DNA of 64,000 bases from Clostridia bacterium (GTDB taxonomy: Bacteria; Bacillota; Clostridia; Monoglobales; Monoglobaceae). The DNA is taken from NCBI GenBank assembly GCA_045586925.1, contig JAZNBG010000035.1, positions 6,417-70,416 of the forward strand, written 5' to 3'. Below the pieces are notes generated by a model. It was not told where the DNA came from. It made no database searches and was given only the letters and a program-made list of their open reading frames with translations. Shown here in pieces: positions 30,478-50,763 of the stretch. The position numbers and the translations under genes are program-made. How positions within the stretch are numbered: the first letter of the stretch is position 1; every line of letters starts with the position of its first letter.

Positions 30478-30584
30478 ATTAAAAAACCACATAATTTCTC
30501 TTATGTGGTAAAACTGAATGAAGAGTTCCCCAATTTGTGTGTTATGAAATATGCATAACGGCTATTTTAACCCGAAAAAAGAAC

Positions 30585-30645: not shown

Positions 30646-30847
30646 TAGAGTTTCGATGAAATTTTACAAAATTCTCTCAAATCATTGACATTTCGATAAT
30701 AATATGTTACCATATTAAAGTATAATTATGTATAGAGCAGTTGTGCGTACCACATAAGAGAAATTATGTTGTAAGTGGAGTTTATTTTTTTTGAGTAAAA
30801 TTATGACCGACTGGTCGGTATAGTGTAAACAAAAAGAGGTGTTACTA

Positions 30848-31417
30848 GTGCTTAGCGATGAACAGAGAGAACAGAAAAAGCAAGAATTGCTGGAAAAATG
30901 CTTTGAACTTTTCGTAAAACAAGGATTAGAGAATACCAGTCTGAACGAGTTGGTGGCATACTGCAATGTTCACAAATCAACTATGTATAGCTACTTGGCG
31001 TCAAAAGATGAGATTGTAATCGAATGTGCAAAAATGCATATGCTTGAACTTGATAAGATGTTCAGCAATGTATTTAAAAATCCACCAAATACACTTAAAG
31101 AAGTATTGCAACATGGTTTTGAAAAGATTGTAGAGGAAAAAAGTAAACTAAGGTTTGTATATCAGGTTATATCAAGTCCATTGTACGGAGAACAGGCACA
31201 AAAAGAGTTATCTTCAATTTATATGAAATATGTAGATTATTCTGAACCTATTGCAAAGATGTATAAGGTTGATGAAGCAGAATTTAGGACATGCTTTGTT
31301 TTATTTTTAAGTACAATGCATGACTATTGTATGTGGGGGAATGAATTCCTTGCTAGAGAAAAGTTGGTATACATATATAACAAGGTAACGGAATTAGACA
31401 AAAATAAAGCAAATTAA
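30848..31417 (+). CDS. TetR/AcrR family transcriptional regulator
   Basis: N-terminal HTH (KQGLENTSLNELVAYCNVHKSTMYSY); GTG 30848 is 9 nt after AAAGAGG. Confidence 0.65.
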   Translation: MLSDEQREQKKQELLEKCFELFVKQGLENTSLNELVAYCNVHKSTMYSYLASKDEIVIECAKMHMLELDKMFSNVFKNPPNTLKEVLQHGFEKIVEEKSKLRFVYQVISSPLYGEQAQKELSSIYMKYVDYSEPIAKMYKVDEAEFRTCFVLFLSTMHDYCMWGNEFLAREKLVYIYNKVTELDKNKAN

Positions 31418-31432
31418 GGAGTTGTTTTTAAA

Positions 31433-32569: not shown

Positions 32570-32589
32570 AAGAGGTGAAAAGACAGAAT

Positions 32590-37239: not shown

Positions 37240-37255
37240 ATAGGAGGTGTATAAT

Positions 37256-38044
37256 ATGAATTTTTCTGACAAATCTTTACATTTAACATATGATGAGTTT
37301 TATGCATTAATGTGTTTGTTAGGTGCAAAAAGTGTTCAAGGAACTTTTGTTGAAAATCATAATAATATATCTCCAAATGATTTCGAGAATATATGGGCAG
37401 TCTGCGAAAAATCACTGATTTCTAAAGGATATATGACATTAGACGGTGAGGATTTGCAGCTGGATATTAGTTTATATAGCATTATAACAGCATGTGTGAA
37501 TGCCGAAAGAAAATATAGTGTACAATTGTCAAAAGATAAATCCAATATTATTGATACAGTTTTTTATGATGGAAATAAGGCAATGGTATGTATCAATAAT
37601 TGTGATGAAAAGAAAGAGGTTTATTTAAGTTATTGCAATAAAAAGAAATCTTTTGATAATGTGGTTAAGGAAATTCCGGATATTACACAAAATATGCTTA
37701 ACGAAAAATCTGCTGAAATTACCCTTTCACAGCAGGAATATTTCACACTCATGTCTAGTGCTAATTTGGGGGACTATACCAAGGCTCGAAATCTATTCCC
37801 TGATGATATGGAAGAAGAATATTTAATGGATTTGATAAACACATTAAAAAATTCTTATGGGTTACTATCGGTTAATGAATTTGAAGATGAGGAAATTAGC
37901 ACTTACAGCATTTTATTTGGAAAAGAATCTTTATGGGCTATTTATGCACAGGATGAAGAAACAATATCCTTTAAATTGGTATCCAAAACTGATTTAGAAG
38001 ATAGCCTCGCGCAAACTTTTGGTTATGACGGAGGTGGCAAATAA
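37256..38044 (+). CDS. hypothetical cytoplasmic protein in the T7SS locus
   Basis: 263 aa, acidic, no TM; ATG 37256 is 8 nt after AGGAGG; overlaps the esaB start. Confidence 0.45.
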   Translation: MNFSDKSLHLTYDEFYALMCLLGAKSVQGTFVENHNNISPNDFENIWAVCEKSLISKGYMTLDGEDLQLDISLYSIITACVNAERKYSVQLSKDKSNIIDTVFYDGNKAMVCINNCDEKKEVYLSYCNKKKSFDNVVKEIPDITQNMLNEKSAEITLSQQEYFTLMSSANLGDYTKARNLFPDDMEEEYLMDLINTLKNSYGLLSVNEFEDEEISTYSILFGKESLWAIYAQDEETISFKLVSKTDLEDSLAQTFGYDGGGK

Positions 38045-38045
38045 A

Positions 38046-38303
38046 ATGACTGAAAAAATTACGTTATCGGTATGTGTACTAGGAATTAATAAAAATTGTG
38101 ATTTTTCTGTTCCGACAAATATGTCAGTTAGAGAAGCAATTAAGTTAATGAAAAAGGTGATAACCGAAGAATATTGGGGTAACTCACCTATGCCAAAGAG
38201 CAGAATGAATTTGATGAAGTTGTCTGATCTTGAGGTATTAAATGATTCATTGAGTTTTGCCCAACTCGGTATTTCAAGTGGAGAAAGATTGATTTTTGTT
38301 TAA
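38046..38303 (+). CDS. esaB: EsaB/YukD-like ubiquitin-fold T7SS protein
   Basis: ~85 aa; a beta-grasp-type pattern ending in ...LGISSGERLIFV, as in YukD (...GDRLEIL); lies directly after essC. Confidence 0.65.
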   Translation: MTEKITLSVCVLGINKNCDFSVPTNMSVREAIKLMKKVITEEYWGNSPMPKSRMNLMKLSDLEVLNDSLSFAQLGISSGERLIFV

Positions 38304-38317
38304 GGAGTGTAAAAAAT

Positions 38318-38614
38318 ATGGCAACGTTTAGAATTAACTATTCAAGAGTTATTTCGCAAGCTAACTCTATGAATAATTTAAGTGGCGATCTTTCTTCTGA
38401 AATACGTAGGTTAGAAAATATGTTAAGCGAAGCTCGAAGTAATTGGAAAGGTCCAGCATCAGAAACATTTCAAAGACAATTAAGTAATTTAATAGGAGAT
38501 ATGAAGAACACAAAAAGTAAAATGTCAAGTGTTTCAAGTACAATTAAGAGTGTCGCAAGAAGGATACAAGCAGAAGATGAGCGAGCTGCTGAAAGAGCAA
38601 AAAAACTGAAATAA
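38318..38614 (+). CDS. WXG100 family protein (EsxA-like)
   Basis: 98 aa helical hairpin with a central W-x-G (NWKGPASETF). Confidence 0.8.
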   Translation: MATFRINYSRVISQANSMNNLSGDLSSEIRRLENMLSEARSNWKGPASETFQRQLSNLIGDMKNTKSKMSSVSSTIKSVARRIQAEDERAAERAKKLK

Positions 38615-38632
38615 GAATTTGGAGGTGGAAAT

Positions 38633-38743
38633 ATGGAAGCTGCGGCTGCAACACCGATTAATTCAGTAGCAAGTACAGTGGTACCTATAGCGGTTGCTGT
38701 GCTTGTTGGAGTGGCAATTTTCGCTTTTTTAAGGCGAAAGTAA
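38633..38743 (+). CDS. unannotated 36-aa single-TM micropeptide
   Basis: GGAGGTGG 6 nt upstream of the ATG; MEAAAATPINSVASTVVPIAVAVLVGVAIFAFLRRK has an Ala/Val-rich TM helix and a basic tail. Confidence 0.4.
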   Translation: MEAAAATPINSVASTVVPIAVAVLVGVAIFAFLRRK

Positions 38744-38809
38744 AGATTAACTTAGGGTTATAAAATAATTATTATAACAAAATTATTTTTCGAAAGGAGC
38801 AAATTTATT

Positions 38810-39121
38810 ATGGCAAACGCATGGTCAGTAACCACAGAAAGACTTACATCTTCTGCAAACATTTTGGAGGAAAAAGTCGCAACGTACAATTCAGAATGGG
38901 GCAAACTTTACACAGAGGTTCAGAATTTAAAATCCTCACAGTGGCAGGGTATCGCAAGTGATGCATTCAACGCAAAACTTGAGTCCTACAAAAATGATTT
39001 TGAAGAATTAGCAAAAGTATTGAACAGCTATAAAGATTTCTTGAAATCAGCAGCAGAAAGATATGAGAAAACAGAAGAAGCAGTAAAAGATGCAGCTGGA
39101 AATCTTAATGCCGGAATATAA
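38810..39121 (+). CDS. WXG100 family protein
   Basis: 103 aa; W-x-G at SQWQGIASDAF. Confidence 0.8.
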   Translation: MANAWSVTTERLTSSANILEEKVATYNSEWGKLYTEVQNLKSSQWQGIASDAFNAKLESYKNDFEELAKVLNSYKDFLKSAAERYEKTEEAVKDAAGNLNAGI

Positions 39122-39145
39122 ATAAAATTTTAGGAGGATTTTAAA

Positions 39146-39445
39146 ATGGCTACAATTAAAGTTGATTCAACAGTAATGAGAGACAAAGCAGGCACATTTA
39201 AGAATGTTGCTAACACAATAAAAAATTTAACAGATGAAATGACTCAGGAGATAGAAAGTTTACGTTCAGCATGGGAAGGCGAATCCGCTGAAGCAACTGT
39301 ATCAAAATTTAAAAGTTTAGCTTCAACATTTGAAGAAAAGTTCAATACAATTAACCAGTATGCATCTTTCCTTGAGGAAGCAGCTAATGCTTATGACGAT
39401 GCAGAAAAGGCTGTCGCTCAGGGAGCAGAAGGCACACAGGCTTAA
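39146..39445 (+). CDS. WXG100 family protein
   Basis: 99 aa; W-x-G at SAWEGESAEA; AGGAGG RBS. Confidence 0.8.
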   Translation: MATIKVDSTVMRDKAGTFKNVANTIKNLTDEMTQEIESLRSAWEGESAEATVSKFKSLASTFEEKFNTINQYASFLEEAANAYDDAEKAVAQGAEGTQA

Positions 39446-39531
39446 TTTGAAGTTTGATAAACACAGAGGCATATAAAATGCATATCTGAAATTATATGTC
39501 TCTGTGAAGTTTGAATTAAGGAGGTGTAAAG

Positions 39532-40791
39532 GTGCCTTACATAAAAGTTGACACAAGGAGATTATCCAACTTTGGAAATGTTGCATCTTCTACAAGAGGT
39601 AGAGTTGGTAATATAAAATCTTCATTTTCCTCTATTGGGAGTTCTCTTGATTGGGATGTAAAGGCTTGTTCTGGTATCAATAGGACAATAAGCCAAATTA
39701 ACAACGAACTTTCAGCAGAGATGTCGAGTTTAAGGAGAATTGAAACTTTTTTTGATTTGGCAGTTAGGAAATATAATGACGCCGAAAAATCCAAAGAAAA
39801 ACTATCAAAAATTCCTCAAACGAGAAGGGTAGCTACTCTTGGTCCAGGAGGTAGAATGAATAATACAACTAAAAATGTTGCATTATTATCTGTTTATAAA
39901 AATAACAAAGCCAGTATAACATCCCAGGTAAAAGTGAAAGAAAATTCCGAATGGACAAAACTTCTCAAGAAAATAGCAAAAAAAGCAGGTTTCGCTGGCT
40001 CCATTTACGGAATTTTAAGTGGAGAATCTGAAACCATTCAACATATAAAAGATGGAGAATATGCAAAAGCGATGCAGAGCTTTGCTGGAGTGGCGAAAGG
40101 TGTAATTAAAACTGTTCCAAAGATATTTGATAAATATGGAAAGATGAAAAAAGCATCCCATTTATTGACCCCTATGCAGAAATTAAAAAATTGGGGGAAA
40201 TCAATAGTTGGATTAGATGATATGATAAAAGCACCTTCAAAAGCTTCAAAAGTAACATCAAGAATCTATAATAATATGCAAAAGTTAGATATAAAAAAAC
40301 TTGGCAAGGTTACGAAGTGTGATGTTATTATAAGTAGCATTGTAAGTATTATTGGTAATGCCTCTGAATATATGGAAGGCAAGATAAGCGCTGCGAGAGC
40401 GGCAGCTGAAACCATTGGAGAAACTGTAATAGAAATTGGAAAAACCGCACTACTGTATAAAGTAGTTGGTGTTGCTGCAACTGCTGTAGCAAGTGCTGCA
40501 GGCATAGCTGCTGTTCCTGCAATTGCAGTAGCCGGTGCTGTAGTTGTGATTAGTTGGGGCATTGATAAGTTGACAGAAAAACTAACAGGAAAAAATTTCA
40601 CTGAATGGTTATCTGATGGAATAATTGATGTTGCTTCATACGTCGGCAAGTCAGTGAAACAGGTTGCAAATACTGTAGTTCCAGCAATTCGTAATACCTG
40701 TACCAATGTTATAAACAAGGCTGGTGAATTCTTCGGAAACGTAAAAAATGGCGTGAATAATTTCTTTGGAAAATTAAGATTTGCATTTTAA
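39532..40791 (+). CDS. putative T7SS-secreted effector: WXG-like N-terminal helical domain plus C-terminal glycine-zipper membrane-active region
   Basis: N-terminal ~90-aa helical hairpin ending in a YNDAEK-type C-terminal helix like Esx proteins. The C-terminus has VVGVAATAVASAAGIAAVPAIAVAGAVVVISWGI (AxxxG/GxxxA zipper). Confidence 0.45.
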   Translation: MPYIKVDTRRLSNFGNVASSTRGRVGNIKSSFSSIGSSLDWDVKACSGINRTISQINNELSAEMSSLRRIETFFDLAVRKYNDAEKSKEKLSKIPQTRRVATLGPGGRMNNTTKNVALLSVYKNNKASITSQVKVKENSEWTKLLKKIAKKAGFAGSIYGILSGESETIQHIKDGEYAKAMQSFAGVAKGVIKTVPKIFDKYGKMKKASHLLTPMQKLKNWGKSIVGLDDMIKAPSKASKVTSRIYNNMQKLDIKKLGKVTKCDVIISSIVSIIGNASEYMEGKISAARAAAETIGETVIEIGKTALLYKVVGVAATAVASAAGIAAVPAIAVAGAVVVISWGIDKLTEKLTGKNFTEWLSDGIIDVASYVGKSVKQVANTVVPAIRNTCTNVINKAGEFFGNVKNGVNNFFGKLRFAF

Positions 40792-40809
40792 AAAAAGGAG
40801 TGAATTTAA

Positions 40810-41079
40810 ATGATTAAAGATTTATTGCCGGTTGGTAGTGTAGTTTTACTTAAAGGTGGCATAAAAAAGTTAGTTATTATGGGGATTAAGCAGGCTAACG
40901 CTGAAGAACCTGATGTTGAATATGACTATGCAGGAGTAATGTATCCAGAAGGATATTTGGGAAATGATACCCTTTACCTTTTTAACCACGCTGATATAAA
41001 TGATATTATTTTTACTGGATATACCAATCCTGAACGTGATGAGTTTTTATTAGAAGTAGAAAAATTATACAATGATTAA
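40810..41079 (+). CDS. small DUF4176-like protein (candidate immunity or chaperone partner of the upstream effector)
   Basis: 89 aa, MIKDLLPVGSVVLLKGG...; this is a family I recall as recurrent in T7SSb islands; assigned from memory. Confidence 0.4.
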   Translation: MIKDLLPVGSVVLLKGGIKKLVIMGIKQANAEEPDVEYDYAGVMYPEGYLGNDTLYLFNHADINDIIFTGYTNPERDEFLLEVEKLYND

Positions 41080-41863
41080 TGCAGTTGCTTTTTCAAATGT
41101 TGGGAATATCAGGAGTAACCACGAAGACAATTATTTACTTGGCGTTGGCAACCACATTGACGAAGTGATACAGAGGCAAATGAGAAATAATCTCTACATG
41201 CAGAAATCCACCTATACGGGTGATGCAGGTGTATTTGCAGTTTGTGATGGTATGGGTGGACATGCTTCTGGAGAGGTTGCAAGTTATGCAGCTATTTGCT
41301 GGTTAAACAATAAAGCTAATTTATTGCTGAATTCTCAACCTACAGAAATAATCAGTTGCATAACAGAATTGAATTCACATATATGTAATGAAGCTGATAA
41401 ATCCTCATGTTGTAACAACATGGGAAGTACTTTAAGTGCAATGATAATCAATGGCAGAAGTATTCATACCATTAATGCCGGAGATAGCCGTATATATTCC
41501 TTTAAAAATGATAAATTATCACAGATAACTACAGACCACACTGAGGGACAGCGATTATTGGACCTTGGATTACTTACAATGAATGAGTTGCCAGAATTTT
41601 CGTCACGAAAATCGTTATATAAGTACTTGGGACGAAAGGGAGAATTGATAGCTGATGTAGTAGATATTAGTGGTAGTGATGGGTTGTATATGATCTGCAG
41701 TGACGGCCTTACGGATGCACTTAATGATTGCGAAATTGAGGGAATATTTTTAAAACGTGATTCAATTTCGGATATCGGACAAGAGCTAATGGATTCTGCT
41801 TTAGCGAAAGGAAATTTATGTGCTGATAATGTGACGTTATTATTAGTTGAAATATCTTACTGA
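41072..41863 (+). CDS. PP2C-family Ser/Thr protein phosphatase
   Basis: FAVCDGMGGHASGEVAS and downstream Asp motifs (GDSR, DGL); overlaps neighbours on both sides. Confidence 0.85.
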   Translation: MINAVAFSNVGNIRSNHEDNYLLGVGNHIDEVIQRQMRNNLYMQKSTYTGDAGVFAVCDGMGGHASGEVASYAAICWLNNKANLLLNSQPTEIISCITELNSHICNEADKSSCCNNMGSTLSAMIINGRSIHTINAGDSRIYSFKNDKLSQITTDHTEGQRLLDLGLLTMNELPEFSSRKSLYKYLGRKGELIADVVDISGSDGLYMICSDGLTDALNDCEIEGIFLKRDSISDIGQELMDSALAKGNLCADNVTLLLVEISY

Positions 41864-43653
41864 TGAAAGAAGGGATAAATTTGATAGGAAAAACCATTTT
41901 AGGTTATACCATTGAGGAAGAAATTGGTTCGGGTGGTTTTGGAACAGTTTATAAGGCTTATAAAAGGGACGAATCCGGAACATTTATTAGAGCAATTAAA
42001 CATATATCCCTTCCTACAAAAAAACAATACAACGATGTACTAAATTCAATGGGTGGAGATTATGCTAAGGCAGATAACTATTTCAATGATATATTGAACG
42101 ATCTCGTCAGCGAAATAAAGATATTATATAATCTTACAGAGCAAGGAGTTCTAAACGTTGTAAGATATACTGATCACCACATTGAGAAACAACAGAACCC
42201 TATCAAATATGATATATACCTTTCTATGGAATATCTAACACCATTTGACGAATATATCCAAACAAGCAAACTTGCGGTTAGGGATGTTATAAAATTAGGA
42301 AAGGATATTTCAGCTGCACTTATCGCTTGCCATAAGAATACCATTATGCATCGAGATATTAAAGATGAAAACATCTTTGTATCTAACGATGGCACATATA
42401 AATTAGGAGATTTTGGGGTTTCAAAAAAAATGCAAGACAGCTCAAGGGCTGAAAGTATGAAAGGTACACCTAATTATATCGCACCTGAAGTGTATTTAGG
42501 AAAAGGCAAATATGATTGCACTGTCGATATATACTCATTGGGGATTGTATTATACAAGCTTCTCAACTATAATCGTAATCCGTTTTTGCCTGAATATCCG
42601 TTGGAATACAATAGTGTAGATGAAGATAAAGCTTTTGAAATGCGTATGAAAGGAGATACGCCTCCTGCTCCGCTTAATGCAAACAATAAACTTGGCGAAG
42701 TAATTTTGAAAGCTATAAGCATTAGAGAAAATCGCTATAACGATGCAGCCGAGCTATATGAATGCTTAAATGAAATCGAAAAAAGCTTAACAAACGAGGA
42801 ACTTAATAAGGTTGTTATATCTCCAATAAAGAATATTGTTGATAAAAAGCCTGAACCTACACCACAGATTCAGAGTGACAAAAATTTAAAAGAAACTATT
42901 GGTGAAGATTATAATGTAACCAATCAGGAAGAAAAAGAGACAGGAAATGGCGCTCTTTTTGAAACTCATGGAGATGATTATACTCCTCCGGTAATAAAAA
43001 GAGAAGAGTCCCAAACAGAATCTATAGTAACAAAGGACGAAGAAGCAGAAGATTGCATAGAAGATGTTGAACAGGAAAAGCCATTAGTGAAAACAAAAAC
43101 AAGAAAGAAAACTTTGCTATATGTCGGCATGGTTTTGGCTGTATTTGTAGCATTGCTTGGATTTAAAATAGCAAACAATATAATGTCAAAAGATAATTGG
43201 ACCGGATTTAGTCATGTATATAATGTTACTGCTGAAGGAAAATATGCAGACGGAAAAAGCGAAGATGAAACAGGAGAAAAATTTGAAATAGATTCAGAGA
43301 CAATTAAAATGGCTTTGGAAGATAATATTCCTAAAAAATTGCCATTAGATCAAGAATATAACTTTGAATTTACAATATATTCACCTGATATGCCAGAGAG
43401 CATAATGGTTTTAGCCGGTAAAGGTGGCGGATATGTTAATTTCGAATATATATCTTGTGCAGAGGAAACAAGCAAGGCATATATAAAATTTCCGTGGGAG
43501 TTTCAAAGTAACCTTAATGGAGAAACTCTGTATTCCCCAGGAGAGAAAATTAGATTTAGAATTGTGGTAGAATACAGAACGAAAAACGATGATGGTTCTA
43601 CTCGTTATGAGAAAATCTATCTTGATAAAACAGCTTTAACATTAACAAAATAA
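41863..43653 (+). CDS. Hanks-type Ser/Thr protein kinase, membrane-anchored with a C-terminal extracytoplasmic domain
   Basis: GSGGFGTVYKA, AIKHI (Lys), HRDIKDEN, DFG, GTPNYIAPE; one TM helix (LLYVGMVLAVFVALLGF). Confidence 0.9.
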   Translation: MKEGINLIGKTILGYTIEEEIGSGGFGTVYKAYKRDESGTFIRAIKHISLPTKKQYNDVLNSMGGDYAKADNYFNDILNDLVSEIKILYNLTEQGVLNVVRYTDHHIEKQQNPIKYDIYLSMEYLTPFDEYIQTSKLAVRDVIKLGKDISAALIACHKNTIMHRDIKDENIFVSNDGTYKLGDFGVSKKMQDSSRAESMKGTPNYIAPEVYLGKGKYDCTVDIYSLGIVLYKLLNYNRNPFLPEYPLEYNSVDEDKAFEMRMKGDTPPAPLNANNKLGEVILKAISIRENRYNDAAELYECLNEIEKSLTNEELNKVVISPIKNIVDKKPEPTPQIQSDKNLKETIGEDYNVTNQEEKETGNGALFETHGDDYTPPVIKREESQTESIVTKDEEAEDCIEDVEQEKPLVKTKTRKKTLLYVGMVLAVFVALLGFKIANNIMSKDNWTGFSHVYNVTAEGKYADGKSEDETGEKFEIDSETIKMALEDNIPKKLPLDQEYNFEFTIYSPDMPESIMVLAGKGGGYVNFEYISCAEETSKAYIKFPWEFQSNLNGETLYSPGEKIRFRIVVEYRTKNDDGSTRYEKIYLDKTALTLTK

Positions 43654-43698
43654 AAGCAATATGTTGATAATTTTGAAATTAAGAAAGAAGGGATAAAG

Positions 43699-45585
43699 TT
43701 GATAGGACAAACAATTTTGGGATATACAATCGAAGAAGAAATAGGTTCAGGTGGCTTTGGCACAGTATATAAAGCGAGAAAAAGTAACCAATCAGGAACT
43801 TATGTGCGTGCAATTAAACATATATCCCTTCCTACAAAAAAACAATACAATGATGTTTTGAACTCAATGGGTGGAGATTATTCGAAGGCGGACGATTATT
43901 TTTCGGATATCCTAAAAGATATTGTTGGAGAAATTCAAATATTAAATAACCTTACTGAACAAGGTGTTCGTAACGTTGTTTGGTATTATGAAAATCAAAT
44001 AGATGAGTGCCAATCTCCACTAAGGTATGACATATATATTTTAATGGAATATCTAACCCCGTTTGATGAATACATACAAGTAAATGAATTTACGGTGAGA
44101 GATGTAATAAAACTAGGTAAAGATATTGCAACAGCACTTGTTGCTTGTCATAAAAATAATGTTATACATCGTGATATTAAAGATGAAAATATATTTGTTG
44201 CAAACGACGGAACATATAAATTAGGTGATTTTGGAGTATCAAAGAAACTTCAAGACCGTTCCCGGGCTGAAAGTATGAAAGGTACACCAAATTACATTGC
44301 ACCAGAGGTATATTTGGGTAGAGGAACCTACGATAATACTGTAGATATATATTCACTTGGGATAGTGTTATATAAATTACTTAATTATAATCGTAATCCA
44401 TTTATGCCTAAATATCCTGAACCATTCAACAGCAATGATGAAGATGTTGCCTTTGAAAACAGAATGAAGGAATTAACACCAGAACTTCCTCAAAATGCTG
44501 AAAACAGTCTTGGTAACATCATTTTGAAGGCTATTGGAAAGCGTGATGAACGTTATGATTCAGCAACAGATTTTTTAGATATTCTTATGGAAACTGAAAA
44601 AAGCTTAACAAACGAGGAATTGAACAAGGTTATAATCACACCTGTAGCAAACGATAAACAGCAAACAGCAGGAACAGTGAATAAAGAAAGTAATATTCCT
44701 CTGAAAGAAACAATTGGTGAGAATTATGAGGTTACGTCAAATGTTGTTAAGGGACAAGGAAATGGGAATCTTTTTGAAACTCAAGGCGAAAAATATGTTC
44801 CACCAGTATTGCCGGATGAGCCAAAAAGGATAATTCATGAAGCAAAAGCGGAGCCTCCTAAAATAGAAACACCCAAAGAAGAAAAATATGAATATGATTA
44901 TGCTCCAAAAGGTCCTCGTACTGCACCACCAGAAGAACCGCATGTTGAACCTATTCAAAAAGGAAGTTTTGATTGGTTATTATATGCTACACCTTTTGTG
45001 ATTTTATTGGTATATATCGTATTGTTTTTCGTGTTACTACCAAAAGCTTATGATAACACAGTATCATTTATAGATTGGGCAATTAAAAATCCGCAGGATT
45101 TGCTTGAAGCGATGAAATCGTCTGATAATGTATTGCCGCCAATATATAAGGTTATTTTCCTTAAATTATTAAATATAGCGTTGTTTTCAGGGTTGGTTAT
45201 ATCGTTATATTTCATCGGAAGAAAACTTCATTTTTCTAAACCAAATTATGCATCCAATGCAACATTGATAGACAAAGAAGCTTACTATTTGTCCTTGGAA
45301 ATATACGAAGAATTAAAGGCTGAATCTATACCCAATACGTCAGATATTATATCTTCTGTAAAAGTAGTACATGACAGATTGAAAAATGATAGCTCTTTTG
45401 GTATAGGAAATCAAAGTGTGATTCGTTGCGAACAGGAAATTGAGTCACTATTAAGAGTTGTTCAGTCAAATATTGCAGGTTTGAAAAATGATAGTACATT
45501 TTCTGGCTCAAAACAGACTATACTAACTTCCTGCAACAGAATAATGGCAAAAATCAAAATGAGAACAGAGTTAAAAAAGAGATAA
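43699..45585 (+). CDS. Hanks-type Ser/Thr protein kinase, tandem paralog with a two-TM C-terminal region
   Basis: Kinase domain ~75% identical to 41863-43653 with all catalytic motifs intact; TTG start; C-terminal region diverged. Confidence 0.9.
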   Translation: MIGQTILGYTIEEEIGSGGFGTVYKARKSNQSGTYVRAIKHISLPTKKQYNDVLNSMGGDYSKADDYFSDILKDIVGEIQILNNLTEQGVRNVVWYYENQIDECQSPLRYDIYILMEYLTPFDEYIQVNEFTVRDVIKLGKDIATALVACHKNNVIHRDIKDENIFVANDGTYKLGDFGVSKKLQDRSRAESMKGTPNYIAPEVYLGRGTYDNTVDIYSLGIVLYKLLNYNRNPFMPKYPEPFNSNDEDVAFENRMKELTPELPQNAENSLGNIILKAIGKRDERYDSATDFLDILMETEKSLTNEELNKVIITPVANDKQQTAGTVNKESNIPLKETIGENYEVTSNVVKGQGNGNLFETQGEKYVPPVLPDEPKRIIHEAKAEPPKIETPKEEKYEYDYAPKGPRTAPPEEPHVEPIQKGSFDWLLYATPFVILLVYIVLFFVLLPKAYDNTVSFIDWAIKNPQDLLEAMKSSDNVLPPIYKVIFLKLLNIALFSGLVISLYFIGRKLHFSKPNYASNATLIDKEAYYLSLEIYEELKAESIPNTSDIISSVKVVHDRLKNDSSFGIGNQSVIRCEQEIESLLRVVQSNIAGLKNDSTFSGSKQTILTSCNRIMAKIKMRTELKKR

Positions 45586-45602
45586 AAAGGAGCGAATAAA
45601 TA

Positions 45603-46196
45603 ATGGCACATCAAGTAGTTGAACTGGAATGTCCAGGCTGTGGAAAACCCATAACAACAAGTACAAAACAATGCCCACAATGTTTTAGGGAGATTGTAAT
45701 CACCACCTTTAATAGTGTAGCATCTATGTCACCGTTGGATATAAACAAATATGCAAGTGCATATAGAAAAGCTTTAGCTGGAAATCCGGATAATAAAGAT
45801 TTGAACACATCAATAGCATTTTGTTACTTGAAATTAAAACTGTATGATAAAGCGTTACCTTGCTTTGAAAAAGCTATTGAAGACAATTTTGATAATTCAG
45901 AAACATATTTTTATGCGGCTATATGCCTGCTGAAAGGTAAAAAAGCATTTCTTACTCTTAGAACTGATATTGATAAGATTGAAGAGTACATACAAGCTGC
46001 AATCATGATAGAGCCTAAAGCTATCTATTATTACTTTTGGGCATATATAAGATACGATCATCATTTTAGAAAGGCGTATAATATGAGTCCAAATTATAGG
46101 GAGTTATTATCACAAGCTACACAAATAGGATTATCACAAACTGATGTACAGGAATTGTATAGTACTTTAGGAATTGACCGTCCTGCACAGTTATAA
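45603..46196 (+). CDS. zinc-ribbon plus TPR-like repeat protein
   Basis: N-terminal CPGCG...CPQCF ribbon followed by TPR-like helical repeats. Confidence 0.5.
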   Translation: MAHQVVELECPGCGKPITTSTKQCPQCFREIVITTFNSVASMSPLDINKYASAYRKALAGNPDNKDLNTSIAFCYLKLKLYDKALPCFEKAIEDNFDNSETYFYAAICLLKGKKAFLTLRTDIDKIEEYIQAAIMIEPKAIYYYFWAYIRYDHHFRKAYNMSPNYRELLSQATQIGLSQTDVQELYSTLGIDRPAQL

Positions 46197-46228
46197 AAAG
46201 TACAATTTAAGAAGGGAGTTGTTTATTT

Positions 46229-47422
46229 TTGATCTGTAAAAAATGTGGAATACGATTAGAAGAAGATGCATTGTTTTGTGGCAATTGCGGAAGCAAAGTA
46301 GAACCTGATTCTGCTAAAACCGCGGTTGAGGATTCAAGTCATGAGTTTGTTTACCCAGAGATACCTATGCCTTCAAAAACAACAACGGTAAAGAGGAAAA
46401 ATAACATGTTGATTCCAATAATATCAATTTCTGTTGTTGCTATTGTTCTAATTGTAGCTTTGATATTATTTTTACTACCAAAATTTTTGAATACTAGTGA
46501 AGATGTGGGCACAGATGTTACAACACAGGATGTTATAACAAAAACAGAAGATTTATCTGATTCCTCTTCAAGTACTGAAAGAACAGAAATAGAAGATAGT
46601 GAAATCAGAAATATTATAAATCAATATTCAAACTACACCGATTTTGGTATATATGTTCATAATTTAAACAATGATTATGAATATGGTTTTAATGATGATT
46701 CTGTGTTTTTAGCTTCTGCTATGTGTCAGGTTGTAATATTAGATACCTTATCAAGAACTGTAGAAGATAACAATATAGATATTAATCAGGAGGAACTATA
46801 TTTTAGCTATATACCTAATGGTAAAGAAGCTCCTACGAGCAAAAATGAATCTGACACATATATAAATTTAAAAAAATGCATAGAAGATGTTGCAGTCTAT
46901 GGAGATAATAACAAATCTAATCATATCGTCGATTATATTGGACAAGTCAATAATGTTAACAATGGATTTGACGTAATAAACAATATGCTTAGACGTAACG
47001 GATATACAGATACACATATTAACAGGAAAACTTTTATTAATCCGGATTATATTGATAATAGCGTACCTGCTAATACGACTACTCCAAGCGAAATAGCAGA
47101 TATATTTGAAAATCTAATCAACAACGGCGGATTTGGAAATAAAAATTATATGATGAACATATTCAAATCTGTTGCACTTGATGGACAACCTATAGGCTTG
47201 AAAAAATGTGTGCCTGCGTATTACGATATTTGCAATGTAAATGCTTTGAACTCGCAATCCACTAACAATGTTGCTATTATTAGCGATGGTAATACGGAAT
47301 TAGCTATTGCAATACTATCAACAACCGATGAATCAAAAACTGATGTAGAAAATAACGAAGATCGTGAAATTGTTATAGCAGAATTAATGAAATACATATT
47401 AGATACACAGTTTGAAAATTAG
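46229..47422 (+). CDS. zinc-ribbon / TM / beta-lactamase-like ectodomain protein with degenerate catalytic motifs
   Basis: CKKCG...CGNCG ribbon, one TM, then a domain similar to 47432-48445 but lacking SxxK (ASAMCQV) and a clear KTG. Confidence 0.45.
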   Translation: MICKKCGIRLEEDALFCGNCGSKVEPDSAKTAVEDSSHEFVYPEIPMPSKTTTVKRKNNMLIPIISISVVAIVLIVALILFLLPKFLNTSEDVGTDVTTQDVITKTEDLSDSSSSTERTEIEDSEIRNIINQYSNYTDFGIYVHNLNNDYEYGFNDDSVFLASAMCQVVILDTLSRTVEDNNIDINQEELYFSYIPNGKEAPTSKNESDTYINLKKCIEDVAVYGDNNKSNHIVDYIGQVNNVNNGFDVINNMLRRNGYTDTHINRKTFINPDYIDNSVPANTTTPSEIADIFENLINNGGFGNKNYMMNIFKSVALDGQPIGLKKCVPAYYDICNVNALNSQSTNNVAIISDGNTELAIAILSTTDESKTDVENNEDREIVIAELMKYILDTQFEN

Positions 47423-47431
47423 AGGTGTGGA

Positions 47432-48445
47432 ATGAATAACGAAAGATTAGACCGAAAACAAAGAAAAGTACGAAAAAAGAGATTGTTTATGGTTAAGGTA
47501 ATTGCATTCATTCTTTTTATCGTTATAGTTTTTATTGCAGGATTTTACTTTGGTAAAACATATAGCTCTAAAAGCATTCCAGTAGCAAATTTTGACAATG
47601 AATATTCTGAGGAAAAGAGCAAATTAACTGATAATTCCGATGAATTTGATAAATTAAACATTTTAAAGACGGATTTAGTTAGTATTATGAATAACAAATA
47701 TCCTACTGTAGATTTGTCCTTTGCAATCAAAAATCTTGATACGGGTGCTATGGTAGTACATAATAACAAAAAAATGAATAGTGCAAGCATAATTAAATTA
47801 TTCATTTTAGAAACTGTATATAATGAAATTATTCAAGGTAAGTATGTGCTTTCCGAGGAACGAGAAAAAGAATTGGAAAAAATGATTACGGAAAGTGATA
47901 ATAACGCTGCCAACAACTTTATAGATGACTTTGGTGGACAAAATGAAAAGCGTAAGGTTGATGAAACTAATTTAATTAATAAAACAATAAAAGAAAAAGG
48001 ATATTTGTTTACTGAATTAAATCGAAAAATGCATGATAAAACACCACCAGAAGGTCCGTCGGGATATCAGAATTATACCTGTGTCGAAGATGTATGTAAA
48101 TTCTTAGAAGGAATATACAACAAAACTCTTTTTGAAGAACCATACAATACATATGCTTTAAATTTAATGAAAAATCAAAAAAGAAGAGCCAAAATCCCTG
48201 CTATGATAACAGACGAATATAACGATGTTATAGTTGCAAATAAAACTGGTGAGTTGTCCCAGGTGGAAAATGATGCAGCAATAATAATGAGTGATGATTT
48301 TAACATTATATTTGTGGTATTAACTGATAACATACCATTCAAGGCGGATGGTACAACTGATTATGATTTAAAAGAAGAAGTTCAAAAAACCATTTCTAAA
48401 CTAGGGTTAAAGGTTGTTGAATTTTATAATGCAAATCAGTTTTAA
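47432..48445 (+). CDS. membrane-anchored class-A-beta-lactamase-fold serine hydrolase
   Basis: One N-terminal TM; SxxK (SASIIK), SDN (ESDNNAANN) and KTG (NKTGE) motifs. Confidence 0.6.
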   Translation: MNNERLDRKQRKVRKKRLFMVKVIAFILFIVIVFIAGFYFGKTYSSKSIPVANFDNEYSEEKSKLTDNSDEFDKLNILKTDLVSIMNNKYPTVDLSFAIKNLDTGAMVVHNNKKMNSASIIKLFILETVYNEIIQGKYVLSEEREKELEKMITESDNNAANNFIDDFGGQNEKRKVDETNLINKTIKEKGYLFTELNRKMHDKTPPEGPSGYQNYTCVEDVCKFLEGIYNKTLFEEPYNTYALNLMKNQKRRAKIPAMITDEYNDVIVANKTGELSQVENDAAIIMSDDFNIIFVVLTDNIPFKADGTTDYDLKEEVQKTISKLGLKVVEFYNANQF

Positions 48446-48518
48446 GCTTAAAACGCAACTTGACAAAAAATTAGTTCTGACAACAAAACAAAATATATAA
48501 AACAAAGGAGAATAAATT

Positions 48519-49976
48519 ATGCAATGTCCAAAATGTGGAAAAGAGAATGCAGACAAAATGAAATTTTGTAGTCAATGCGGAAGCCCATTGGCTGACAATG
48601 AACAAAGAAAAGATGAAAGTACAGTGGTAGCTGGTGAAACAATATCGTCAAATGCATCATATACAAAACCTAAAAATTCAGTTGATGAAAATGTTAAAAG
48701 ATCAAAAATTTATTCATACTTCTATGGTTCAAACACTGTTTTTCAGCAGTTTATAATCATATTAGGTGTTTTCTGTCTTATGATGATTAATGTTGCTAAT
48801 GTAGCACAATATGCAAAGTACAACTCTATGCAAGAGAAGTATTATGAGTTGCGAGAAGAAGTATCAATGGCTGAAAGCGAGTATGAAGAGCTCTACTATG
48901 AATATAGATATGACTTTGATGTTGACCGATATGAGGCTGTTTCAGTTACAAAAGACGAAAAAGATTATGATGAAAAAGTTGAATATAATAAAGCTTTAGA
49001 AAAATATGAAAAAGCTAATGAAAAATGTGAACAGTATTCAGAAAAAATGAACAATGCACATTCTTCAACACCGTTTATGGAAACTGTTTTCAAATTTCTA
49101 GGATATATAGCAATTTTAGTTGGTGTTATTTGGTTTATTTATAAAAAAATCACTTTTGATAAAAGTGGAGAATATGTATATGATCAAGAATTGAAAGATA
49201 AAATTGAAGAAGCAAAACAAAAAGGAATGGACAAGCTTAACATTATTTCTGAGCAAATTGAGAAGGTAGAACCGGTTGTACTTAACGGTATTGCTCATGT
49301 TGATAATGATTTAGTGTCAGCAATATCCATAGGTAAGCTCGGCGCGTTATTCCAAACTTTGTTCAAGTTTATTTTGTCCTTTGATAAGATAATTATAGGA
49401 TTAATAGGTTCGTCTATTTTAACTACAATAAGTACATTTTTAGTTTCTAAAAATGTGCCGTTTATAATTGTATTTTTGCTGGTATTTGGCGGTATAGGAT
49501 ATTTAGGATGTCTCGTATATAAAAAGTATGAAATTGATTCCTACATAAAGCCTAAAACCATTGAAAGATTAAATAAATTTGCACCGCACTACATTGAAAG
49601 AGTAGGTAGTGATGACAGATTAAGAGTATCCCTTCCTGCTATTACGGTTTATATGTTTGGTGACGACCAGTTGTATATGTACTATCAGTATTTGGATATT
49701 GTAACTGGTAAAATATTCTGCGAAGGTGTTCATGAATACTTCTATGAGGATATCGTGGGTGTTACCTCTGCTCAGGAAACTAAAAAGACATATAAACGCT
49801 ATGGATTTATGAATCTCTTCTTGAGAAGCATTGATTATCTTAAAGAACATATTACAGTGGTTTCAAGCGGATGCATGCATAAGGAATCATATGTTGTTGA
49901 TATCGGACATTCTCTTCTCGACACACAATTTGTTGGTATGAGAAATCTTATTCGTCAGAAGAAAATGGAAAAGTGA
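48519..49976 (+). CDS. zinc-ribbon membrane protein with a coiled-coil, acidic region
   Basis: N-terminal CPKCG...CSQCG ribbon, several TM helices and an E/Y-rich repeat segment. Confidence 0.5.
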   Translation: MQCPKCGKENADKMKFCSQCGSPLADNEQRKDESTVVAGETISSNASYTKPKNSVDENVKRSKIYSYFYGSNTVFQQFIIILGVFCLMMINVANVAQYAKYNSMQEKYYELREEVSMAESEYEELYYEYRYDFDVDRYEAVSVTKDEKDYDEKVEYNKALEKYEKANEKCEQYSEKMNNAHSSTPFMETVFKFLGYIAILVGVIWFIYKKITFDKSGEYVYDQELKDKIEEAKQKGMDKLNIISEQIEKVEPVVLNGIAHVDNDLVSAISIGKLGALFQTLFKFILSFDKIIIGLIGSSILTTISTFLVSKNVPFIIVFLLVFGGIGYLGCLVYKKYEIDSYIKPKTIERLNKFAPHYIERVGSDDRLRVSLPAITVYMFGDDQLYMYYQYLDIVTGKIFCEGVHEYFYEDIVGVTSAQETKKTYKRYGFMNLFLRSIDYLKEHITVVSSGCMHKESYVVDIGHSLLDTQFVGMRNLIRQKKMEK

Positions 49977-50060
49977 TAAAGAATTATTTTAATGTTAACT
50001 ACTGTGTAATGCCACTACATAGATGTTATATACAAACAACACAAAAGGAGATGTTTAAAC

Positions 50061-50720
50061 ATGGGACTTATTGATGGCGCAGCAGCTGCAGCTGAATTCG
50101 CACAATGGCAAGCACAAAGAAAGAACCTGATGAAAGCGGCTAATCCCACTCAGAAAAAGGCAATTAAATACTTTATTCCTGAACCAGGATGCAAAGGTCT
50201 TTTTGACAAAGTATCAGACGAAGAATATGATGAAATCGTAAAGGGTATGGTTAAGTCAAGCAATTCTTATCAGAGAGCTCTTGACAAAATCGGTCTTGAT
50301 GAAAGCGAACTTAAAGAGATTCCTCCGGTTACATTATACGGATACGAAGAAGGCAAGAATAGCTTTTCAAAAACAAATATAGATGGAACATACAGAACTA
50401 ACCTTTACTCCATCACACACTTGTTCTTCTCTGCTACACAGGTTTATATGTATCAGCTCGTTTTAAATACAATGAAGAATGACCGCAAGGAAAGAACTGA
50501 AGAATATTTCTATAAGGATATTACAAACTTCTCAACTCTTTCCGATACTGTTGAGTCTATTACTTTCAAGGGCTGTCAGAATACAGTGCAGAAAGTATCT
50601 GTTGAAGTACAGAAATTCTCTCTTATCGTACCTGGCGACAAATTCACTTGTGCTACATACGGTGATATCGATCAGCAGGTAAGAGCAATGAAAAATAAGC
50701 TTAGAGAAAAGAAACAATAA
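50061..50720 (+). CDS. hypothetical soluble protein
   Basis: 219 aa, good RBS, no recognisable motif. Confidence 0.45.
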   Translation: MGLIDGAAAAAEFAQWQAQRKNLMKAANPTQKKAIKYFIPEPGCKGLFDKVSDEEYDEIVKGMVKSSNSYQRALDKIGLDESELKEIPPVTLYGYEEGKNSFSKTNIDGTYRTNLYSITHLFFSATQVYMYQLVLNTMKNDRKERTEEYFYKDITNFSTLSDTVESITFKGCQNTVQKVSVEVQKFSLIVPGDKFTCATYGDIDQQVRAMKNKLREKKQ

Positions 50721-50763
50721 TTAGTTATAGCGTGCACGCTAAAGGTAATTATAGGTGATATAG

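What the first reader, a model, noticed from the sequence alone, without database searches (positions are those of the whole stretch)
41072..45585. PP2C phosphatase and two active membrane Ser/Thr kinases joined to the FHA-EssC locus suggest a phospho-regulated T7SS
Directly downstream, with overlapping stop and start codons, are a PP2C phosphatase and two paralogous Hanks kinases. Each kinase has a cytoplasmic kinase domain, a TM segment and an extracytoplasmic or membrane C-terminal region. That topology resembles EssB, the T7SSb pseudokinase, but all catalytic motifs are intact here (Gly loop, VAIK Lys, HRD, DFG, APE). The EssC FHA domain keeps the canonical pThr-binding residues (GR, SRKH, NG). 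EssB is missing. Together this suggests the kinases take the EssB position as active enzymes and regulate secretion by Thr phosphorylation, analogous to the PpkA/PppA/Fha pathway of type VI secretion.
Basis: inference. Interest (0 to 1): 0.85.

Follow-up and report, generated by a model that had tools for sequence, protein, structure and literature searches.

The report
Kinase-linked type VII secretion locus
A mobile element in a gut Clostridia genome carries a type VII protein-secretion gene cluster joined to two active Ser/Thr kinases and a phosphatase; the idea that such kinases switch secretion on through the FHA domain of EssC was published in 2024, but this gene arrangement looks like a subtype that has not been described.

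Summary
Window 41072-45585 encodes a PP2C phosphatase and two paralogous Hanks kinases with intact catalytic motifs. They sit in one tightly packed gene string with an FHA-EssC ATPase, a YukD-like protein, three WXG100 proteins and DUF4176. The EssC FHA domain keeps GR/SRKH/NG, and no EssB is in the locus.

Garrett, Higginson & Palmer 2024 (PMC11217815) already described T7SS variants with membrane kinases, PPM phosphatases and pThr-competent FHA-EssC, and already drew the EssB and T6SS analogies.

Comparative genomics supports a functional kinase-EssC link:
- 18 of 23 species-level loci with this kinase type carry the T7SS genes.
- 16 of 22 EssC-selected loci carry PP2C plus kinase.
- One kinase-less lineage has lost the pThr-binding Ser.

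The kinases are not EssB-like. The canonical one (K2) has a TM hairpin and a cytoplasmic four-helix bundle. K1 is a lineage-specific duplicate with an Ig-like ectodomain. The SPFH–PP2C–kinase–TPR module also occurs without any T7SS, once next to a TIR-FHA protein.

Gene content and an EssC tree separate this clade from all published subtypes b–j. The locus lies on a 36.6 kb element inserted in spoVAD.

The parts
31433..32569 (+). Cytosolic SPFH (Band_7_1) protein with three C-terminal zinc ribbons. It is the first gene of the conserved cluster.
   Evidence: Pfam Band_7_1 E = 3e-44 and Zn_Ribbon_1/DZR; no TM segment. It is conserved at 57-95% directly upstream of essC in relatives. It is fused to the kinase in P0061.
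32575..37239 (+). FHA-EssC (TsxC) ATPase with a pThr-competent FHA domain, 2 TM segments and FtsK/SpoIIIE P-loop domains.
   Evidence: Pfam FHA and FtsK_SpoIIIE. TIGR03928 scores 1019.8 bits against a cut-off of 778.4. Best PDB match is B. subtilis YukB, E = 1.3e-133. GR/SRKH/NG are present. Walker A motifs at residues 708 and 1054.
37247..38044 (+). 265-aa soluble protein of unknown function, present only in the closest relatives.
   Evidence: No Pfam, NCBIfam or PDB match. Homologues only in L001/L002/L007.
38046..38303 (+). YukD/EsaB-like small ubiquitin-fold protein (TsxB). The start is probably the internal ATG, giving 85 aa.
   Evidence: Weak Pfam YukD hit, E = 3e-4, below the cut-off. 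An 85-aa gene is called at the same position in relatives, some with a YukD hit.
38318..39445 (+). Three WXG100 genes (38318-38614, 38810-39121, 39146-39445). The third is PPE/ESAT-6-like.
   Evidence: Pfam WXG100 E = 2e-12 to 2e-14. TIGR03930 is above its cut-off for the third gene. All three are conserved in relatives.
39532..40791 (+). 419-aa protein with a helical WXG/LXG-like N-terminus, a variable middle and a conserved Ala/Gly-rich TM hairpin. It is a candidate substrate or membrane component.
   Evidence: TM segment 310-345. The family alignment shows conserved ends and a variable middle. It is only 50% identical in L001, where neighbouring genes are 80-95% identical. No Pfam or PDB hit.
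40810..41079 (+). DUF4176 protein, a T7SS-associated small protein.
   Evidence: Pfam E = 1.5e-24. A 2025 paper is titled 'A LXG toxin stabilized by DUF4176...' (PMC12482557, title only).
41072..41863 (+). PP2C/PPM Ser/Thr phosphatase (TsxF-like).
   Evidence: Pfam PP2C and PP2C_2. Similar to Stp1/IreP, E = 1e-46 but below the cut-off. Metal-binding motifs are intact.
41863..43653 (+). K1: active Hanks kinase, linker with ETIG and LFET motifs, 1 TM segment and a 154-aa extracytoplasmic beta-sandwich. It is a lineage-specific duplicate.
   Evidence: The only homologue of the ectodomain is P0121. No K1-type C-terminus occurs in 41 genome loci.
43699..45585 (+). K2: canonical kinase of the family. 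Active Hanks kinase, linker with invariant Thr338 (ETIG) and Thr361 (LFET), a TM hairpin and a cytoplasmic four-helix bundle.
   Evidence: The family consensus follows the K2 C-terminus.
45603..46196 (+). 197-aa zinc-ribbon + TPR protein. It follows the kinase in most K2-type loci and is the most conserved protein of the cluster.
   Evidence: Pfam TPR and DZR. It is 50-95% identical in loci where the kinase is about 45-50% identical. There are 1677 clusters, and the top 120 are 189-198 aa (116 of them exactly 197) at 76-96% identity.
46229..51556 (+). Downstream membrane/cell-wall genes.
- Zn-ribbon-TM-Beta-lactamase2 protein (46229-47422)
- TM-Beta-lactamase2 protein (47432-48445)
- Zn-ribbon polytopic membrane protein (48519-49976)
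- orf219 (50061-50720)
- YidD-domain membrane protein (50764-51294)
- 79-aa membrane protein (51317-51556)
   Evidence: Pfam and TM segments. The zr485, orf219 and YidD proteins recur in relatives. The beta-lactamase-like slot is replaced by YARHG + Amidase_3 in relatives.
19143..55712 (.). A ~36.6 kb low-GC integrative element that carries the whole locus and is inserted in spoVAD.
   Evidence: GC is 0.30-0.38 inside against 0.41-0.44 in the flanks. The SpoVAD halves are at 18519-19166 and 55697-56104, with a large serine recombinase at 53898-55580. The junction sequences restore ...MGAAMAPAAADT... when joined.

Best explanation
This is a type VII secretion gene cluster of the kinase/phosphatase-associated kind. 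It is carried on a mobile element in a gut Clostridia genome, possibly an Oscillospiraceae relative.

Shown:
- An EssC ATPase with a canonical pThr-binding FHA domain, a YukD-like protein, three WXG100 proteins, DUF4176 and a conserved 419-aa membrane-hairpin protein lie in one tightly packed gene string. That string is flanked by a signalling set: an SPFH-Zn-ribbon protein upstream, and PP2C, Hanks kinase(s) and a Zn-ribbon-TPR protein downstream.
- The arrangement is conserved across Lachnospiraceae, Oscillospiraceae and related MAGs.

Inferred mechanism:
- The membrane-anchored kinase has almost no ectodomain in its canonical K2 form, so it more likely reports on the state of the membrane or of a partner protein than on a soluble ligand.
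- It phosphorylates Thr residues. The best candidates are the conserved (E)T(I/V/L)(G/A)x(D/E) and LF(D/E)(T/S) motifs in its own juxtamembrane linker.
- The EssC FHA domain docks on the pThr, which promotes assembly or activation of the secretion ATPase. PP2C resets the switch.
- The SPFH-Zn-ribbon protein and the highly conserved Zn-ribbon-TPR protein are probable partners of the kinase on the input side.
- K1 is a recent duplicate that adds a second, extracellular (Ig-like) input.
For: - Domains and intact catalytic and pThr-binding motifs.
- Operon-like packing, with no + strand terminator-like site between genes from 31.4 to 49.4 kb.
- Conserved order in relatives whose kinases are only 40-50% identical.
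- Linkage from the kinase side: 18 of 23 species-representative loci with a K2-type kinase carry T7SS genes. Linkage from the EssC side: 16 of 22 loci selected by the EssC N-terminus, with at least 10 kb downstream of the essC start, carry PP2C plus kinase.
- Covariation: the kinase-less lineage L085/86/88 has V-D-E-[H/R]-H in place of V-S-R-K-H. This parallels Table S1 of Garrett 2024.
- An invariant Thr and a nearly invariant Thr in an otherwise variable linker.
- A related kinase next to a 2xFHA-ABC transporter carries five tandem NETVVVDS repeats in the same linker.
- A Rosetta-stone fusion of kinase-SPFH-Zn-ribbon lies inside a T7SS cluster.
- The published hypothesis for sister subtypes.
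Against: - There are no experimental data for any member of this clade.
- The phospho-acceptor is unknown. Other possible acceptors were not examined; for example EssC itself, as I recall for the FHA-ABC transporter Rv1747.
- The signalling set occurs without T7SS genes in L015, L017, L020 and L035, so it is not dedicated to T7SS.
- The linker motifs are degenerate in some EssC-linked lineages. Thr becomes Ser in the second motif of the L064 clade, and no motif is seen in L034 or L040.
- The FHA motif-2 His is Cys or Thr in one subclade.
- T7SSe-like loci L093 and L095 keep the motifs but show no kinase within 10 kb.
Confidence: 0.6

Rival explanations
1. The SPFH-PP2C-kinase-TPR genes form an autonomous membrane-stress or anti-phage sensing cassette. 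It acts on whatever FHA-tagged effector is encoded beside it. The T7SS genes are one interchangeable output inserted between the SPFH and PP2C genes, and the kinase is not a T7SS component as such. This reading overlaps with the best explanation, because the T7SS would still be phospho-controlled, but it changes what the system is.
For: - Cassette without T7SS: L015, L017, L020 and L035.
- L017 has a TIR_2-FHA protein downstream.
- Kinases of the same family sit beside 2xFHA-ABC transporters (L025, L042), a DUF6382-FHA protein (L044) and Tad-like ATPases (L032).
- SPFH and TPR are far more conserved than the T7SS parts.
- The element is rich in defence genes, including Kiwa.
- L105 carries a TIR protein next to the fused kinase.
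- In B. subtilis the cytosolic SPFH protein YdjI/SamI is part of a membrane-stress sensor.
Against: - Most K2-type kinases (18 of 23) are T7SS-linked.
- L015 and L020 show no FHA partner in the stretch available.
- SPFH, TPR and the other accessory proteins have no PADLOC match.
- T7SS-less loci could be decay products.
Confidence: 0.25
2. One reading: the kinases are structural stand-ins for the EssB pseudokinase. They would be core membrane subunits that bind the EssC FHA domains, with catalysis added on top.
For: - No EssB, EsaA or EssA in the locus or in related loci.
- K1 has an EssB-like N-in, single-TM, C-out topology.
- In T7SSb the EssC FHA domains contact the EssB pseudokinase (Garrett 2024 text).
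Against: - The K1 ectodomain is a beta-sandwich and is unique to this element.
- Kinase C-termini vary freely among EssC-linked loci such as L028, L029, L034 and L038.
- The EssC lineage L085 exists without any kinase.
- The module exists without EssC.
Confidence: 0.08
3. The kinase/phosphatase pair controls the locus transcriptionally, as reported for IreK and the E. faecalis T7SSb, or serves general cell-envelope homeostasis and is merely co-located.
For: - Precedent cited in Garrett 2024.
- The PP2C is most similar to Stp1/IreP.
- A TetR gene lies upstream at 30839-31417.
- Cell-wall enzymes lie downstream.
Against: - The TetR gene has no homologue in any related locus.
- No conserved transcription factor is in the cluster.
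- The pThr pocket of the EssC FHA domain is conserved where the kinase is present and lost in a kinase-less lineage.
- The kinases have no PASTA domain.
Confidence: 0.07

Closest known systems
T7SSe, T7SSd and T7SSj (Garrett, Higginson & Palmer 2024, Microlife, PMC11217815)
   Same: - FHA-TsxC with conserved GR/SxxH/NG motifs.
- A membrane Ser/Thr kinase (TsxD) with an intact active site.
- A PPM phosphatase (TsxF).
- YukD-like TsxB and several WXG100 proteins, one of them PPE-like.
- Zn-ribbon membrane proteins (compare TseK).
- A TPR element associated with the kinase (fused to the kinase in TsjD).
- The same proposed phospho-regulation.

The kinase domain is 50% identical to the kinase of an Adlercreutzia (Actinomycetota) PP2C-kinase-EssC locus (L040).
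   Different: - No large Ig-like TsxI, no DUF6382-FHA TsxJ and no obvious TsxH.
- It has an SPFH-Zn-ribbon protein, a separate 197-aa Zn-ribbon-TPR protein, DUF4176 and a conserved 419-aa hairpin protein.
- The kinase anchor is a hairpin plus a cytoplasmic four-helix bundle.
- EssC is at most 30% identical to every published representative over the TM-to-D1 region. It forms its own clade (NJ bootstrap 86), while TseC groups with other loci (bootstrap 98).
- The paper and its supplements do not mention SPFH, Lachnospiraceae or Butyrivibrio.
Canonical T7SSb (S. aureus Ess, B. subtilis Yuk)
   Same: An EssC of the Firmicutes type (TIGR03928 above its cut-off; best PDB hit YukB), a YukD/EsaB-like protein, WXG100 proteins and DUF4176.
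   Different: - No EssB, EsaA or EssA.
- The FHA domain is pThr-competent, whereas TsbC lacks GR and SxxH (Table S1).
- Active kinases and a phosphatase are present.
T6SS threonine-phosphorylation pathway (PpkA/PppA/Fha; A. tumefaciens TssL-Fha)
   Same: The same logic: a membrane Hanks kinase, a PP2C phosphatase and an FHA domain that reads a pThr on a membrane component to activate a secretion machine (as summarised).
   Different: The secretion machine is unrelated. Here the FHA domain is fused to the ATPase itself. No homology beyond the shared domains was tested.
PknF / Rv1747 (FHA-tagged ABC transporter of M. tuberculosis; from my own knowledge, not tested here)
   Same: A kinase regulating a membrane transporter that carries N-terminal FHA domains. 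Relatives of the window's kinases sit beside exactly such 2xFHA-ABC transporters (L025, L042).
   Different: In Rv1747 the pThr sites lie in the transporter's own inter-FHA linker. Here the conserved Thr motifs lie in the kinase linker.
SPFH scaffolds: B. subtilis YdjI/SamI-PspA membrane-stress complex, and S. aureus FloA, which promotes T7SS assembly
   Same: A cytosolic SPFH protein associated with a membrane sensor (PMC8581546; bioRxiv 10.64898/2026.02.06.704340). A flotillin is reported to help T7SS assembly (PMC5718613, title only).
   Different: Here the SPFH protein carries three zinc ribbons, is encoded next to essC, and is sometimes fused to the kinase. No PspA gene is in the locus. 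Whether YdjI belongs to Pfam Band_7_1 was not checked here.

Membership tests
Type VII secretion system (any subtype) | Membrane FtsK/SpoIIIE-family EssC/EccC ATPase with multiple P-loop domains | tested here: met
   Pfam FtsK_SpoIIIE in 3 stretches. TIGR03928 scores 1019.8 against a cut-off of 778.4. YukB match E = 1.3e-133.
Type VII secretion system (any subtype) | Adjacent WXG100 (EsxA-like) protein(s) | tested here: met
   Three WXG100 ORFs with E = 2e-12 to 2e-14. TIGR03930 is above its cut-off.
Type VII secretion system (any subtype) | YukD/EsaB ubiquitin-like protein (absent only from T7SSd) | tested here: inconclusive
   Pfam YukD E = 3e-4, 21.9 bits against a cut-off of 27. Position and size are conserved in relatives, some with a weak YukD hit. 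No structure was predicted.
T7SSb | EssB/YukC pseudokinase, EsaA and EssA encoded with EssC | tested here: not met
   No such Pfam hit in any ORF from 30.8 to 51.6 kb, nor in the called genes of L001-L006. The rest of the genome was not available.
T7SSb | EssC FHA domains lacking the pThr-binding motifs | tested here: not met
   GR, SRKH and NG are present. TsbC has 0% GR and 0% SxxH.
T7SSe (Garrett 2024) | Kinase TseD + PPM TseF + FHA-TseC with pThr motifs + two WXG100 + TseB | tested here: met
T7SSe (Garrett 2024) | TseI (large Sec-signal Ig-like protein), TseJ (DUF6382 + FHA) and TseH | tested here: not met
   No Ig-like, DUF6382 or second FHA protein in the cluster or in the related loci.
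T7SSe (Garrett 2024) | TsxC groups phylogenetically with TseC | tested here: not met
   26% identity. TseC clusters with L102/L095/L093/L096 (bootstrap 98), while the window's clade is separate (bootstrap 86). Caveat: the references are single sequences taken from machine-read figure text (about 620-690 aa of N-terminal sequence), and the tree is neighbour-joining only.
T7SSj (Garrett 2024) | TsjI, TsjJ, a TsjD kinase with a C-terminal TPR domain, and TsjC close to T7SSf/b | tested here: not met
   No I or J components. The TPR is a separate 197-aa protein. TsjC is 23% identical and does not group with the window.
T7SSd (Garrett 2024) | Actinomycetota only, no YukD-like protein, TsdI present | tested here: not met
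   The host has spoVA and spoIIP genes and its relatives are Clostridia MAGs. A YukD-like ORF is present.
Hanks-type (eukaryotic-like) Ser/Thr protein kinase, catalytically competent | Gly loop, beta3 Lys, alphaC Glu, HRD..N, DFG and APE | tested here: met
   All are present in K1 and K2. Pfam Pkinase E ~1e-42. A family profile hits PAK1, PknB and Stk1. Activity itself was not tested.
EssB/YukC pseudokinase family | YukC Pfam domain or degenerate kinase fold, plus a helical extracellular C-terminal domain | tested here: not met
PPM/PP2C phosphatase | Conserved metal-binding Asp motifs (ED, DGxGG, DG, DN) | tested here: met
pThr-binding FHA domain | GR, SxxH and NG motifs | tested here: met
   G125-R126, S141-R-K-H144 and N169-G170. 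Binding was not tested.

The most novel reading that the evidence does not exclude
The SPFH-Zn-ribbon / PP2C / hairpin-kinase / Zn-ribbon-TPR genes are a portable membrane-perturbation sensor, possibly triggered by phage or competitor attack. It fires different FHA-tagged outputs through the same pThr code: a T7SS through FHA-EssC in most genomes, and a TIR-FHA protein or FHA-ABC transporter in others. On this reading the locus is a previously undescribed T7SS subtype in abundant gut Clostridia whose secretion is a triggered, defence-like response, and it spreads on an element that splits spoVAD.
Probability: 0.3. Interest if true: 0.7.

Novelty: new variant of a known kind. Interest (0 to 1): 0.45.

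Why it matters
The general idea of kinase/phosphatase/FHA control of non-canonical T7SS is published but untested. This clade is a good place to test it:
- It is common in human and ruminant gut Clostridia.
- It has a minimal membrane complement.
- It has a clear candidate pThr motif.
- It offers natural controls: a kinase-less lineage with a Ser-to-Asp FHA domain, and T7SS-less sensor cassettes.

If the sensor cassette really serves interchangeable FHA-tagged outputs, that would link T7SS firing to membrane-stress or defence signalling in commensal Firmicutes.

Tried and rejected
- **orf265 as an EspG-like chaperone, and orf419 as a known LXG toxin.** No Pfam, NCBIfam or PDB sequence match.
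- **Known anti-phage system.** PADLOC hits on the kinases are generic kinase-domain matches (mad6, PD-T4-6). SPFH, TPR, zr485 and orf219 have none, and the PP2C has one weak hit.
- **Source record.** Exact look-ups of K2 and of the recombinase found nothing on record. The only information is that the proteins occur on an NCBI contig of 123,051 bp, and that the recombinase's 90% cluster includes Oscillospiraceae MAGs.
- **Promoter/terminator scan.** Counts were no different from shuffled sequence.
- **Rfam and tRNA scans of the window.** Nothing found.
- **Literature on this subtype.** Searches with Lachnospiraceae, EssC and kinase returned nothing relevant.
- **Clean correlation between linker Thr motifs and an FHA partner.** Only suggestive. 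L017 keeps the motifs. L015 and L020 lack the strict [E/D]-T form, but a Thr-hydrophobic remnant (TILA, TVAVD) is still visible in each.


Full report
**Observation.** The window has one long + strand gene string from 31433 to 51556. Pfam assigns the genes in this order:
- an SPFH (Band_7_1) protein with three zinc ribbons
- an FHA-FtsK/SpoIIIE EssC of 1554 aa
- an unassigned 265-aa ORF
- a weak YukD-like ORF
- three WXG100 proteins
- an unassigned 419-aa protein with a TM hairpin
- DUF4176
- PP2C (41072-41863)
- two Pkinase proteins (41863-43653 and 43699-45585)
- a zinc-ribbon-TPR protein
- membrane and cell-wall proteins

Both kinases have all the Hanks catalytic motifs, and the PP2C has its metal-binding motifs. 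DUF4176/PP2C and PP2C/K1 overlap, and K1/K2 are 45 nt apart. The EssC FHA domain has GR, SRKH and NG. No EssB, EsaA or EssA hit occurs in the locus. The PP2C>K1>K2 arrangement recurs in an independent metagenome.

**Prior art.** Garrett, Higginson & Palmer 2024 (PMC11217815) defined T7SSc-j. They report membrane Ser/Thr kinases (TsxD), which they describe as having 'similar topology to ... [quoted passage not shown] They also report PPM phosphatases (TsxF) and FHA-TsxC proteins whose GR/SxxH/NG motifs are conserved exactly in the subtypes that have a kinase (d, e, j). They propose phospho-regulation by analogy with the T6SS.

**Is the kinase-EssC link real here?** K1 has more than 3000 homologues in gut Clostridia metagenomes. 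Contexts of two homologues, including one only 51% identical to K1 and named Butyrivibrio in its record, show the same order: SPFH > FHA-EssC > YukD > 3 WXG100 > ~416-aa protein > DUF4176 > PP2C > kinase > 197-aa TPR.
- A scan of one genome per species with a kinase alignment gave 41 loci. Of the 23 with a K2-type kinase, 18 carry T7SS genes.
- A reciprocal metagenome scan with the EssC N-terminus gave 22 loci with full-length EssC and at least 10 kb downstream of the essC start. Of these, 16 have PP2C plus kinase.
- The one kinase-less lineage inside the clade (L085/86/88) has V-D-E-[H/R]-H in place of V-S-R-K-H, so it has lost the pThr-contacting Ser.

This is good comparative support for a functional kinase-FHA connection.

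**Where might the pThr be?** In an otherwise variable linker, K2 T338 (ETIG) is invariant and T361 (LFET) nearly invariant across 24 family members. Variants of both motifs recur across most EssC-linked loci. A related kinase that sits next to a 2xFHA-ABC transporter has five tandem NETVVVDS repeats at the same place. Autophosphorylated linker Thr residues read by the FHA domain are the most economical model. This step is an inference.

**Are the kinases EssB substitutes?** No.
- The family consensus follows K2. AF2 (pLDDT 79) shows a TM hairpin followed by a four-helix bundle, which must be cytoplasmic.
- The hairpin-bundle module also occurs as stand-alone ~210-aa proteins.
- K1's C-terminus is a single TM segment plus an all-beta Ig/FN3-like domain (pLDDT 61). 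Its only homologue is one 252-aa protein, so K1 is a recent duplicate with a new sensor domain.

**The signalling set is separable from the T7SS.** L015, L017, L020 and L035 have SPFH > (PP2C) > kinase > TPR with no EssC or WXG100 genes between them.
- L017 instead has a TIR-FHA protein downstream.
- Kinases of the wider family neighbour 2xFHA-ABC transporters, a DUF6382-FHA protein and Tad-like ATPases.
- P0061 fuses the kinase to the SPFH-zinc-ribbon protein inside a T7SS cluster.
- The TPR protein is the most conserved gene of the cluster, almost always 197 aa long and 76-96% identical over the top 120 clusters.

This suggests a portable sensor (SPFH, kinase, TPR, PP2C) whose usual output is the FHA-tagged EssC. 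Cytosolic SPFH proteins are implicated in membrane-stress sensing in B. subtilis, and a flotillin is reported to help T7SS assembly in S. aureus. These are analogies only.

**Which subtype?**
- By gene content the locus lacks TsxI, TsxJ and TsxH, which are required for T7SSe, and TsxI and TsxJ, which are required for T7SSj. It has SPFH, TPR, DUF4176 and the 419-aa protein instead.
- I rebuilt about 620-690 aa of N-terminal sequence for each published representative from machine-read Figure S2 text. The window's EssC is 19-30% identical to every one of them, which is the same range as the subtypes show among themselves (15-32%).
- In a neighbour-joining tree the window's clade is monophyletic (bootstrap 86) and excludes all representatives, while TseC groups with other fetched loci (bootstrap 98). 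Deep branches are unresolved, and the references are single, noisy sequences.
- The paper and its supplements never mention SPFH or Lachnospiraceae, and literature searches found no description of this arrangement.

I file it as a new variant of a known kind.

**Context.** The locus lies in a ~36.6 kb low-GC element. The element splits spoVAD and ends with a large serine recombinase, and joining the flanks restores the SpoVAD reading frame. The element also carries Kiwa and other defence-type genes. The flanks are housekeeping and sporulation genes.

**Verdict.** The phospho-switch reading is plausible and supported by comparative evidence, but it is already published. The EssB-replacement reading is not supported. 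Three things are new here: the subtype architecture, the candidate pThr motifs, and the evidence that the sensor cassette is modular.

Noticed in passing
window 19143-55712 (junctions near 19143 and 55712): A ~36.6 kb low-GC element interrupts spoVAD, with a large serine recombinase at 53898-55580. Joining the flanks restores ...MGAAMAPAAADT.... In B. subtilis spoVAD is forespore-expressed (my own knowledge), so skin-like excision in the mother cell would not obviously rescue it. No paper in the searched library mentions spoVA together with intervening elements.
   Followed up: partly
window 19266-30477: The element carries a defence-island-like cargo:
- Gp49-like toxin (19266-19625)
- PDC-S27-like ATPase/DUF234 (21242-22648)
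- probable DNA methyltransferase with an adjacent two-repeat ORF, judged from the translated sequence only, no family search run (22650-25901)
- Kiwa KwaA/KwaB (26019-27585)
- resolvase (28234-28908)
- tyrosine recombinase (29629-30477)

Family hits for the Gp49-like, ATPase and Kiwa genes are; the methyltransferase, resolvase and 29629-30477 recombinase labels rest on reading the translations.
   Followed up: partly
L017:13876-14802: A TIR_2 + FHA protein lies downstream of a T7SS-less SPFH-PP2C-kinase-TPR cassette. It may be an alternative pThr-controlled output.
   Followed up: partly
L025:7437-8969 (- strand), L042:14004-16334, L025:9989-11992: Related kinases sit beside ABC transporters that carry two N-terminal FHA domains. 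The L025 kinase linker has five tandem NETVVVDS repeats.
   Followed up: partly
L105:4225-6912 (protein P0061): A natural fusion of the kinase with the SPFH-zinc-ribbon protein, replacing the membrane hairpin, inside a WXG100/DUF4176/PP2C cluster. A TIR_2 protein lies downstream.
   Followed up: yes
window 45603-46196: The zinc-ribbon-TPR protein is strikingly conserved. There are 1677 clusters, and the top 120 are 189-198 aa (116 of them exactly 197) at 76-96% identity, far above the kinase or EssC. Its partner and role are unknown.
   Followed up: partly
window 39532-40791: The 419-aa protein is only 50% identical in the nearest relative, where neighbouring genes are 80-95% identical. The helical N-terminus and the Ala/Gly-rich TM hairpin are conserved and the middle is variable. 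No adjacent immunity-like gene is apparent.
   Followed up: partly
L085:9740-14377, L086, L088 (also L084): An EssC lineage with no PP2C or kinase within 10 kb has Asp in place of the pThr-binding Ser of the FHA domain (VDE[H/R]H). This resembles the published TsfC motif IDRKH.
   Followed up: partly
L060, L061, L063, L065, L067 (essC at about 10013-11335 in L060): Several gut metagenome contigs (L063 and L067 among them; sources of the others not checked) carry an essC ORF that ends at 440 aa, with none of the usual downstream genes. The FHA sequence differs by one residue from that of the full-length loci L062/L064/L092. The gene is probably disrupted in a common strain.
   Followed up: no
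window 44881-45582 (K2 C-terminus): The TM-hairpin + four-helix-bundle module has 122 representative clusters, and many of them are stand-alone proteins of about 205-240 aa without a kinase domain.
   Followed up: no
window 46229-48445 versus L001:12542-13989 and L004:13658-16210: The slot after the TPR gene is variable but always cell-wall related. The window has two membrane-anchored Beta-lactamase2-family proteins, and relatives have YARHG + Amidase_3.
   Followed up: no
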